Source: Eledone cirrhosa
Taxonomy: Eukaryota
Assembly (NCBI GenBank): GCA_964016885.1
Contig: OZ024741.1
Location: 329,158,001 to 329,222,000, forward strand
Length of the DNA: 64,000 nt
Reading direction: 5' to 3'
Positions 19,783 to 21,555 of this stretch are shown here, in pieces (position 1 is the first letter of the stretch; every line of letters begins with the position of its first letter). The notes under the pieces are model-generated. The model was not told where the DNA came from and did no database searches. It worked only from the letters and a program-made list of their open reading frames with translations. Made by a program: the position numbers and the translations under genes.

Positions 19783-21555
19783 TAGATAAATCTACCAAAA
19801 TATACGGTAGTGCCCAATCCGTATGAAGAACTCAATGTAATCCACCGTAATAGACGAGTTACTTGGTATAATGCTCCATTTAATCTACAAATTAAAGATA
19901 ATATACCTAAAAAAATTTATGCTATCCTAGAGAAAAACTTCCCGCCAAACCATAAATACCATCAAATTTTAAATAGATCAACGGTCAAATTCTCCTACTC
20001 CACAACCAAAAGTATACAACAAAATATAAGTGCCTACAATGCATATAAATGTAAAAAAAAACATGAATATACCACCAACTTATCAAACTAACCATAATAC
20101 TAAAATAAACCACAGCAAACCACCATCTCATTCACATACAACAAGTCGAGAAAATTCCACACCTAATTTGACTAACTCCTCTGATATAACATTCACGAAA
20201 GGTTGTAACTGTAGAAGCAAAGCAAATTAATAACATAGTATATAAATGTAAAATTAGCACTAAGGACTCAACTTATTCATATATAGGAGCTACTTCTAAC
20301 CAATTTAAAGTAAGATTTAATACCCACAAACACAGTTTTAAAAATGCCGCATTAGCTAATACAACATCCTTAGCTGAAATAATTAATAATTATAGAAAAA
20401 GAATATCGATTATAACCTGACCTGGAGTGTGTTCAAAAGGGCCACCCCTTATCAAAATAATAGATATGAATGTAGATTATGTTCCCAAGAACTTTTTGAA
20501 ATAATGAAATCTAAGGATATTAAATCTAAGGATATTAAATAAGCGACAAGAATTAATTATATCGTGCAATCATAGAATTAGAAAAACTTTCAAATATTAT
20601 AAACCTAATTAATATACACTTATATTTTACATATTATTATAATTAATTTTTTTTAAATTAGTTAACCTATAATTAATATTTTACTACTAAGAACTGCAAA
20701 TTTTATTTCCCTTTTACAGCTATCTTTTCCTAAAATTTATACCAATAAGTATACCAATAAGTATACATATAAACTATTTTAATTTCCTTGTAATCTATAT
20801 AAGTTTATTTCTCACTAATACATTTATCCCCAAAAAAAATTTTTTTCCTTCGTTTTTAACTTTTTTATTCGTTTTTAACTCGTTTTTAACAACATTCTTT
20901 AATAACATCTAACTCTTATTTATCATATCTATATGAATTAATATAAATGTATCCCTATAAATATACCTATCAATTAAATTAATTTAATTTCTTTTTATAG
21001 ATCTAAATTCCTTATGTTTTAAATAAGATTGATATTTTTCACTAATACATTTATCGTAAAATTTTATTCTCCTTAGATTTTAACATTAGCATTATTCTAT
21101 AATAACATCAAATTTTCGTGTACCTTTCACCGGCTTCACCTATTTTCATCCCCTAAGTAACCTTTTCATTCAAAATACTCTTTCCATTCAAAAGTGAAGT
21201 CTGCATTCCTCTACCCCTAAATTAAATTTCTACTACTACTATTCTATCAACTTGACCACTTACTACTTTTGTATTGGTCAATTCAAAACCTGTTCCCAAA
21301 TAGACCTATTATATTAAATCTTTGTTGGTTTTTTTCAATAAACAAATATCATTATTTCTGAAGACAGCATATATATGTGTAGGTATGTATATTCCCTCTG
21401 ATAGTTTGTAAAATTTTTACATAGATCTATATGATATACATACCAACACACACATATATATCCTAGAAACGATCGTAAAATAATGAATTTTTTAATATAA
21501 GGAACTGTTTCTTTGTTTTTATTCTTTGTTTTTATTCATTATTTTTATTAATATA
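19783..21555 (+). mobile_element. Penelope-like element family B, diverged 5'-truncated copy (GIY-YIG region + 3' UTR + HHR)
   Basis: [27 protein letters not shown] and CRLC homology to copy 1; starts with an inverted 60-nt tail; (TA)n on both sides. Confidence 0.9.
21349..21486 (+). ncRNA. Type I hammerhead ribozyme with about 101-nt stem II
   Basis: ucauuauuu-CUGAAGA-[long hairpin]-GAAAC-gauc-GUA-aaauaauga. Confidence 0.8.

What the first reader, a model, noticed from the sequence alone, without database searches (positions are those of the whole stretch)
19783..19845. 5' truncation points are capped by an inverted copy of the element's own 3' tail, in several families
Seen: PLE-B 19783-19843 equals 11684-11743 (the extreme 3' end, inverted) and is fused to mid-ORF sequence. 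In PLE-C, AAGACTAAAATCC... from the 3' tail (26837-26880) caps two copies truncated at different points (32760-32805 and 34992-35004). In PLE-A the inverted segment 6037-6085 starts at the HHR cleavage triplet (TGTA|AGTG), as does the 34706-34798 hairpin. 29870-30096 is a further case. Established: inverted pLTR pieces at PLE 5' ends are known. Inference: both DNA ends of a cut (TA)n target prime cDNA on the RNA tail (twin-priming-like), sometimes running off at the ribozyme-cut end.
Basis: partly seen in the sequence, partly recalled or inferred. Interest (0 to 1): 0.7.

Follow-up and report, generated by a model that had tools for sequence, protein, structure and literature searches.

The report
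Two-start Penelope insertions, capped-end run-off
The flipped caps are real and are the short arm of two-armed insertions of a known kind of jumping gene, likely written into both ends of a cut TA repeat from two fixed start points on one RNA, with copying likely running off at the RNA's capped start rather than at its predicted ribozyme cut.

Summary
The caps exist, but they are not duplicates of a copy's own 3' end. Five hammerhead-bearing families (three with Hydra-type Penelope-like ORFs) each have two fixed ends: R1 (end of a 60-165-nt tail) and R2 (before the tail). Head-to-head insertions carry one arm of each: 118 of 123 pairs, 98 of 100 clean pairs. The arms of a pair share variants (0.9 versus 8.4 differences). 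The 19783 cap is an R1 arm aborted after 60 nt on an R2 body. Twin priming is therefore supported. Run-off at the ribozyme cut is not: 0 of 58 short PLE-B arms and 0 of 60 family-D arms start within 3 nt of it; a minor class (5 of 94 in PLE-A) starts 3-6 nt upstream. Instead 36 of 58 PLE-B arms start at the 5' base of hammerhead stem I, often with an extra G, as expected for a capped transcript start. Inverted arms, tails and two start sites are published; the strict pairing and capped run-off were not found in my searches. The scan already noted two start points on other DNA of this genome.

The parts
19783..19842 (-). PLE-B short arm ('cap'): first 60 nt from start site R1, wholly inside the tail
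   Evidence: 95% to 11684-11743; junction without microhomology
19843..21550 (+). PLE-B long arm: 5'-truncated ORF end, 3' UTR with hammerhead motif, ends at R2 without tail
11684..16692 (-). PLE-B R1 arm of a second, 7.5-kb two-armed insertion; tail = 11684-11816
16693..19213 (+). PLE-B R2 arm, head-to-head with 11684-16692, with an internal deletion
   Evidence: 99.6% inverted matches; R2 end
11882..12029 (-). PLE-B predicted type I hammerhead; 12029 = 5' base of stem I, inferred capped transcript start and main arm stop; predicted cut between 11890 and 11889
   Evidence: motifs read from sequence; stop counts; long stem II folds, core not recovered by MFE
32760..32805 (+). PLE-C 45-nt R1 arm capping a minus-strand body
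   Evidence: 95.6% to 26837-26881
31145..32759 (-). PLE-C long arm with GIY-YIG region, ends at R2
34992..35004 (-). PLE-C 13-nt micro-cap, starting 19 nt inside R1
35003..37343 (+). PLE-C long arm, ends at R2; predicted hammerhead 37272-37322, inferred start at 37272, predicted cut after 37317
26837..27051 (.). PLE-C short two-armed insertion (R1 arm on minus, R2 arm on plus), both arms ending at the hammerhead core
6037..6084 (+). PLE-A 48-nt R2 arm beginning 4 nt upstream of the predicted cut, within a 5-nt microhomology
1341..6041 (-). PLE-A long arm (partial tandem: pLTR, ORF, pLTR), ends at R1; predicted cut between 5703 and 5702
34703..34869 (.). Family D two-armed insertion: R2 arm 34703-34742 (minus), R1 arm 34743-34869 (plus), tail about 66 nt, predicted cut after 34767
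29870..30485 (.). Family E (442-bp tandem hammerhead unit) two-armed insertion: R2 arm 29870-30096, R1 arm 30097-30485, predicted cut after 30205

Best explanation
These are two-armed, head-to-head insertions of Hydra-type Penelope-like elements in TA repeats, one arm ending at each of two fixed sites (R1 and R2), likely made when the two ends of a cut target each prime reverse transcription at one of the two sites on the same RNA. Shown: the two fixed ends, the one-of-each pairing, the shared variants within pairs, the stop positions. Inferred: the element's endonuclease cuts both strands of (TA)n; two reverse transcriptase units bound to one sense RNA start at R1 and R2; each cDNA stops independently; the two cDNA ends are joined head-to-head by end joining with microhomology or short fillers. 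A cap is the case where one arm aborts early. Because R1 and R2 also lie near the 5' end of an mRNA that starts in the upstream pLTR, many cDNAs likely run off that capped 5' end, which sits at the first base of hammerhead stem I, giving thousands of short hairpin insertions. Ribozyme cleavage is inferred not to set the breakpoints.
For: Pairing: 118 of 123 adjacent terminus pairs are R1+R2 over five families; of 100 pairs under 1.5 kb without an inner TA run, 98 are R1+R2, one scored exception (L296) reads as R1+R2 by eye, one (L256) is R1+R1; about half would be mixed if sites were chosen independently (R1 38, R2 50 arms). 25 of the 118 have an R1 arm shorter than the tail, so the arms do not overlap. 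Same source: 34 PLE-B pairs differ by 0.9 on average within and 8.4 between pairs, also when arms lie 4-7 kb apart. Internal sites: L011, L029, L072, L082, L090 run from R1 straight into the ORF start. Stop: 36 of 58 short arms start at d336-350, none within 3 nt of the cut; 40 of 79 start on one base; junctions differ from copy to copy. Extra G: 14 of 40 against 2 of 32 at neighbouring starts (p 0.004); in pattern rows G:A is 13:12 at that base against 12:71 three bases in (p 3e-4); 7 of 7 in C and 4 of 4 in D among non-native bases. An untemplated 5' G is read as a cap trace for L1 (PMC9341517, passages). A related PLE cuts and extends both strands, starts at two internal sites and does not need ribozyme cleavage in vitro (PMC11167929, parts 1-2).
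Against: No RNA or biochemical data for these families. Same donor locus and same molecule cannot be told apart: the nearest arm of another insertion is often as close as the partner, and conversion between arms could add to the likeness. In vitro, PAc showed no difference in start site between the two strands and no pairing was reported. The G is present in only about a third to a half of PLE-B arms; about half of the C cases could take it from the partner, a slip or a TG run. Stops are diffuse in D and show no sharp peak in A. An exonuclease stall at the folded ribozyme plus terminal addition could mimic a capped start. One true R1+R1 pair exists (L256). A cluster of starts 3-6 nt upstream of the cut in A (5 of 94; two not explained by the partner) and 4-5 nt upstream in D (4 of 74) is unexplained. 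Samples are mostly the first hits along contig C1.
Confidence: 0.65

Rival explanations
1. Two RNA molecules from one active donor are used, one per target end, each enzyme unit being assigned to R1 or R2 by its place in an asymmetric complex.
For: Explains shared variants and avoids two enzymes copying the same 212-nt stretch; PAc is predicted to be a dimer (PMC11167929).
Against: The (TA)n target is symmetric, so the one-of-each rule needs an extra source of asymmetry that one RNA with two sites gives for free.
Confidence: 0.15
2. Fold-back or self-priming, on an antisense template as proposed for rotifer Penelope elements, makes the inverted arm as a copy of its neighbour.
For: Proposed in PMC3846280 (passages); explains arm identity, junctions in the stem III palindrome (L062, L108, L261) and the R1+R1 pair L256 with shared private changes.
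Against: Cannot make tail-only caps fused to sequence they do not overlap (25 of 118; the 19783, 32760 and 34992 cases) or arms of unrelated length; the extra G lies 5' of the sense strand, pointing to a sense template.
Confidence: 0.08
3. One reading: cDNAs often run off at the end made by ribozyme cleavage.
For: 5 of 94 PLE-A arms start 3-6 nt upstream of the cut, more than a uniform spread gives (Poisson 1e-4, 1e-3 without the window case, window chosen after the fact); two of the five (window, L286) could start at the cut.
Against: 0 of 58 in B, 0 of 60 in D within 3 nt; L296 and L293 carry triplet bases that a cut RNA lacks and the partner does not fully supply. The C pattern spans the cut, so C was not tested.
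Confidence: 0.07
4. Two independent insertions in opposite orientation in one TA array were later fused by deletion.
For: These elements target TA arrays and nest in each other (L161, L296).
Against: Arms of a pair are far more alike than random copies and pair R1 with R2 almost without exception.
Confidence: 0.03

Closest known systems
Hydra-clade endonuclease-bearing Penelope-like elements (Craig et al. 2021, PMC8557442; passages and section 11 read)
   Same: C-terminal GIY-YIG region, RWR/DKT, CxCx5C, CxxC and CxH motifs, hammerhead motif, (TA)n targets, inverted 5'-truncated copy, tail at one end.
   Different: Tails are 60-165 nt rather than 30-40; units reach 4-5.4 kb rather than under 3 kb; the paper ascribes the tail to endonuclease resolution and gives no pairing rule or stop site in the passages read.
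PAc (Poseidon, Anolis) in vitro transposition (Frangieh et al. 2024, PMC11167929; parts 1-2 of 4 read)
   Same: Both target strands cut and extended; two internal start sites that bound the tail; ribozyme cleavage not needed; no reads ending at the cut.
   Different: No coupling of one site to each target end was reported, nor run-off at a capped start at the ribozyme's edge; other clade.
Adineta vaga Penelope elements (Arkhipova et al. 2013, PMC3846280; passages read)
   Same: Head-to-head inverted pLTRs, tail on one of them, initiator-like motif in the pLTR, junction palindromes.
   Different: Explained there by self-priming on an antisense template; the non-overlapping caps and sense-side G here argue for sense-template double priming.
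L1 twin priming (PMC11702581, passages read; original model recalled)
   Same: Both target ends prime on one RNA; inverted pieces joined by end joining with microhomology or fillers.
   Different: In L1 the first primer uses poly(A) and the second a variable internal site, and arms do not overlap much (recalled); here both sites are fixed and internal, and most arm pairs overlap (93 of 118).
Animal non-LTR retrozymes (PMC7229834, passages; bioRxiv 10.64898/2026.07.22.740005, part 1 of 5)
   Same: Family E is a 442-bp tandem unit with a type I hammerhead motif.
   Different: Its insertions show the same R1+R2 arms as the PLEs (14 of 15 scored), which fits mobilisation by PLE enzymes; circular RNA not tested.

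Membership tests
Hydra-clade PLE | RWK-type and DKT motifs in the N-terminal RT region | tested here: met
   RWR and DKT in A; DKT in B and RWR in a B relative; not examined in C
Hydra-clade PLE | C-terminal GIY-YIG region with CxCx5C linker, CxxC and CxH | tested here: met
   CxCx5C and YIG in B and C, CxxC and CxH in C
Hydra-clade PLE | Insertion into (TA)n | tested here: met
   Arm ends abut TA or other simple repeats in nearly all loci read
Hydra-clade PLE | Type I hammerhead in the pLTR | tested here: inconclusive
   Core motifs and stems read by eye in all five families; C has a variant core; no Rfam hammerhead among the 150 of 187 rows shown; MFE folds recover only parts; cleavage untested
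Hydra-clade PLE | Placement in the Hydra clade by RT phylogeny; short unit under 3 kb | not tested
   No tree built; Pfam gave no hit for the four PLE ORF pieces; B unit is 5.4 kb with its repeats
PLE insertion signature | Partial tandem or inverted 5'-truncated copy, tail at one end only | tested here: met
L1-type twin priming | Poly(A) priming plus variable internal second priming, with target-site duplication | tested here: not met
   No poly(A); both ends fixed; duplications cannot be read inside (TA)n. It works like twin priming but is not the L1 process
Non-LTR retrozyme (family E) | Short ORF-less tandem unit with type I hammerhead | tested here: met
   Array of about 442-bp units at G000:C1:70.05-70.08 Mb; tandem junctions in L242, L246
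Non-LTR retrozyme (family E) | Self-cleaved linear and circular RNA | not testable with these tools
   Needs RNA data or an assay

The most novel reading that the evidence does not exclude
Penelope-like elements integrate by obligatory double priming: one RNA carries two fixed start sites, one for each end of the cut target, and the mRNA begins exactly at the first base of its own hammerhead, so that priming near the capped 5' end yields a retroelement 'strong-stop' product that is inserted as a hairpin thousands of times, while the ribozyme would act to cut off the cap-bearing leader rather than to shape the cDNA.
Probability: 0.4. Interest if true: 0.7.

Novelty: new variant of a known kind. 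Interest (0 to 1): 0.5.

Why it matters
How Penelope-like elements make their inverted arms and one-sided tails is stated as open in Craig et al. 2021, and the published models disagree (endonuclease resolution, antisense self-priming, internal initiation). The junctions here give two sharp, countable rules - one arm per start site, and a stop at a likely capped start on the ribozyme's edge - that can be tested at once in the existing in vitro system. They also explain a large class of short hairpin repeats that could be mistaken for DNA transposons, and tie a retrozyme to the same machinery.

Tried and rejected
Idea that the 13-nt cap at 34992 is native ORF: rejected, 29 other copies differ there. 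Rfam gave only microRNA-type noise from repeats; Pfam found none of the four PLE ORF pieces. A second ribozyme cutting at the d346 stop was considered and rejected by eye: no core upstream and no room for a type III fold. A single master hairpin copied many times was rejected because junctions differ. The C pattern spans the predicted cut, so C says nothing on run-off at the cut. BLAST extension overshoots in AT-rich PLE-A flanks (63 of 94 arms classed long), so A stops are rough. In one search six D values at -5 to -8 lie at the pattern edge and L217 is a native copy with a deletion. Paper searches; none showed the pairing rule or a capped stop at a PLE hammerhead, but subscription papers (for example the 2006 and 2008 Penelope papers, recalled) and supplements were not seen. 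A sequence look-up among earlier findings was left out, so close earlier notes on PLE-B may be missed; a word look-up for cap and start found none.

Full report
Setting. The window lies at G000:C2:329158001-329222000 in a 3.0-Gb animal genome rich in TA arrays. It holds three ORF-bearing families, A (ORF pieces 3843-5468, minus), B (14793-16736, minus, and others) and C (32145-32777, 35160-35903). Pfam names none of four pieces tested, but the motifs that Craig et al. list for the Hydra clade (PMC8557442, section 11) are present: RWR and DKT in A, DKT, CxCx5C and YIG in B, CxCx5C, YIG, CxxC and CxH in C. Two further families, D (34703) and E (29870), showed no ORF in the stretches read; E is a tandem unit of about 442 bp. 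Exact-pattern counts are 6419 (B), 1191 (A), 28945 (C), 6318 (D) and 2235 (E), with 0 for each reversed control.

The observation. All five inverted pieces exist. In B, arms end either at R1 (window 11684) or 133 nt earlier at R2. The copy capped at 19783 ends at R2, and its cap is the first 60 nt from R1, so cap and body do not overlap. The same holds for C at 32760 and, with a rare 19-nt offset, at 34992. In A, D and E the short inverted arm is the R2 arm and the long arm ends at R1. [quoted passage not shown]

Pairing. I scored adjacent outward-facing termini in 310 fetched loci: B L061-120 and L151-190, A L121-150 and L271-310, C L031-060 and L311-340, D L191-220 and L251-270, E L221-250. 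Most are first hits along contig C1; L031-060 are best hits to an ORF query and 11 of the 20 D regions were picked as close pairs. Of 123 distinct pairs 118 are R1+R2, 3 R2+R2 and 2 R1+R1. Among the 100 under 1.5 kb without an inner TA run, 98 are R1+R2; L296 reads as R1+R2 with a missed terminus, and L256 is a true R1+R1 whose arms share private changes; the other three exceptions are a nested insertion, two separate insertions and a false motif hit. With R1 and R2 arms about equally common (38 and 50), independent choice would give about half mixed pairs. 25 of the 118 are tail-only caps like the finding's (B 8 of 38, A 9 of 31, C 4 of 9, D 3 of 26, E 1 of 14). In 34 B pairs whose arms overlap, partners differ at 0.9 positions on average against 8.4 between pairs, also at 4-7 kb distance, though an unrelated arm is often as close as the partner. 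By eye about 35 of 52 B insertions on C1 0-70 Mb are two-armed.

Where arms stop. Hammerhead cores and cut sites were assigned by eye and are predictions; Rfam showed none among 150 of 187 rows and MFE folds recover only parts. In the position-ordered B set, 58 of 88 arms start within 420 nt of R1; none starts within 3 nt of the cut and 36 start at d336-350. In a wider set that includes the best-hit loci L001-030, 40 of 79 truncated arms start on one base, window 12029, the 5' strand of stem I; 32 start 1-8 nt inside and 7 beyond. Junctions differ among copies, with overlaps, blunt joins and short repeated fillers. The base 5' of that start is G in 14, A in 14, T in 12, against G in 2 of 32 at the inner starts (p 0.004; 11 of 37 against 0 of 30 after removing by eye those the partner could supply). 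In the first 100 of 2180 pattern rows I counted G 22, T 20, A 58; in the 30 rows of the young subfamily G 13, A 12, T 5; the control three bases in gave G 12, C 13, A 71 in all 96 rows (p 3e-4). The excess of A in the other subfamily may be a native variant; I did not check. In C, 7 arms start at the 5' base of stem I, all with G, about half of them ambiguous; one further row is unrelated sequence. In D, 4 of 4 non-native bases at the matching place are G, but stops are spread over about 20 nt. The start bases fit a pyrimidine-purine initiator (consensus recalled). An untemplated 5' G with such an initiator is read as a copied mRNA cap in L1 (PMC9341517, passages).

The cut. D has 0 of 60 short arms within 3 nt of it. 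A has 5 of 94 arms starting 3-6 nt upstream (after correcting a 1-nt offset), including the window case; two are ambiguous, two carry triplet bases the partner does not fully supply, one has no identified partner. D has four at 4-5 nt. These arms include the triplet, which lies on the upstream cleavage product, so they are not simple run-off; a pause or annealing at the palindromic stem III is my guess, and this class stays unexplained. The E case starts 10 nt downstream. C was not testable with my pattern.

Mechanism. Inferred: the enzyme cuts both strands of (TA)n; each end primes at one of the two sites on one sense RNA, helped at most by a few TA-like bases; each cDNA stops on its own; the ends are joined. 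The symmetric target cannot impose the one-of-each rule, so the asymmetry most simply comes from one RNA with two sites. When priming occurs at the junction near the mRNA's start, both cDNAs run off the capped end. Rivals are two RNAs from one donor, antisense self-priming (PMC3846280, passages), run-off at the cut, and fusion of separate insertions.

Known and new. Inverted truncated copies and a one-sided tail are described, as are double-strand extension and two start sites. I found neither the strict pairing nor the capped stop in seven paper searches, which miss subscription journals; supplements were not read. Earlier notes of this scan on other windows of this genome already propose two start points on one RNA and a fold-back point just upstream of the ribozyme; I had reached both before reading them, and they are not independent support. 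The extra G was not found in those notes by a word search. Verdict: real, a known kind of insertion with two useful new rules; interest 0.5.

Noticed in passing
window 11684-19213: A 7.5-kb two-armed PLE-B insertion (R1 arm minus, R2 arm plus, 99.6% alike); the plus arm lacks the stretch matching about 13066-15088.
   Followed up: partly
L092, L111, L023, L024, L006 junctions: Fillers made of short repeats of the arm's own end or start, suggesting repeated slipping during joining or abortive priming.
   Followed up: no
L256 (G000:C1:42875400-42876550): The only R1+R1 pair; both arms share private changes, as expected from fold-back or later conversion.
   Followed up: partly
window 37272-37322: The predicted PLE-C hammerhead has A at the second core position instead of U in nearly all copies read; this is the most abundant family (28945 pattern hits).
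   Followed up: no
G000:C1:70055870-70076166: About 20-kb tandem array of the 442-bp family E unit.
   Followed up: no
window 8925-8986, 24613-24745, 27780-28040, 28141-28437, 29638-29754, 37290-37427: Further hairpin insertions in TA arrays that look like two-armed products of other or the same families.
   Followed up: no
window 9663-11097: A 5'-truncated non-LTR retrotransposon RT (Pfam RVT_1, E 2e-19), unrelated to the PLEs.
   Followed up: no
window 6695-7081, 22055-23010, 54662-57569: A roughly 190-bp SINE-like repeat in tandem dimers and inverted forms.
   Followed up: no
   Followed up: no
window 47393-47706 and 48636-49964: A 25-bp tandem with telomere-like units, and a 42-bp low-complexity tandem open in several frames.
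   Followed up: no
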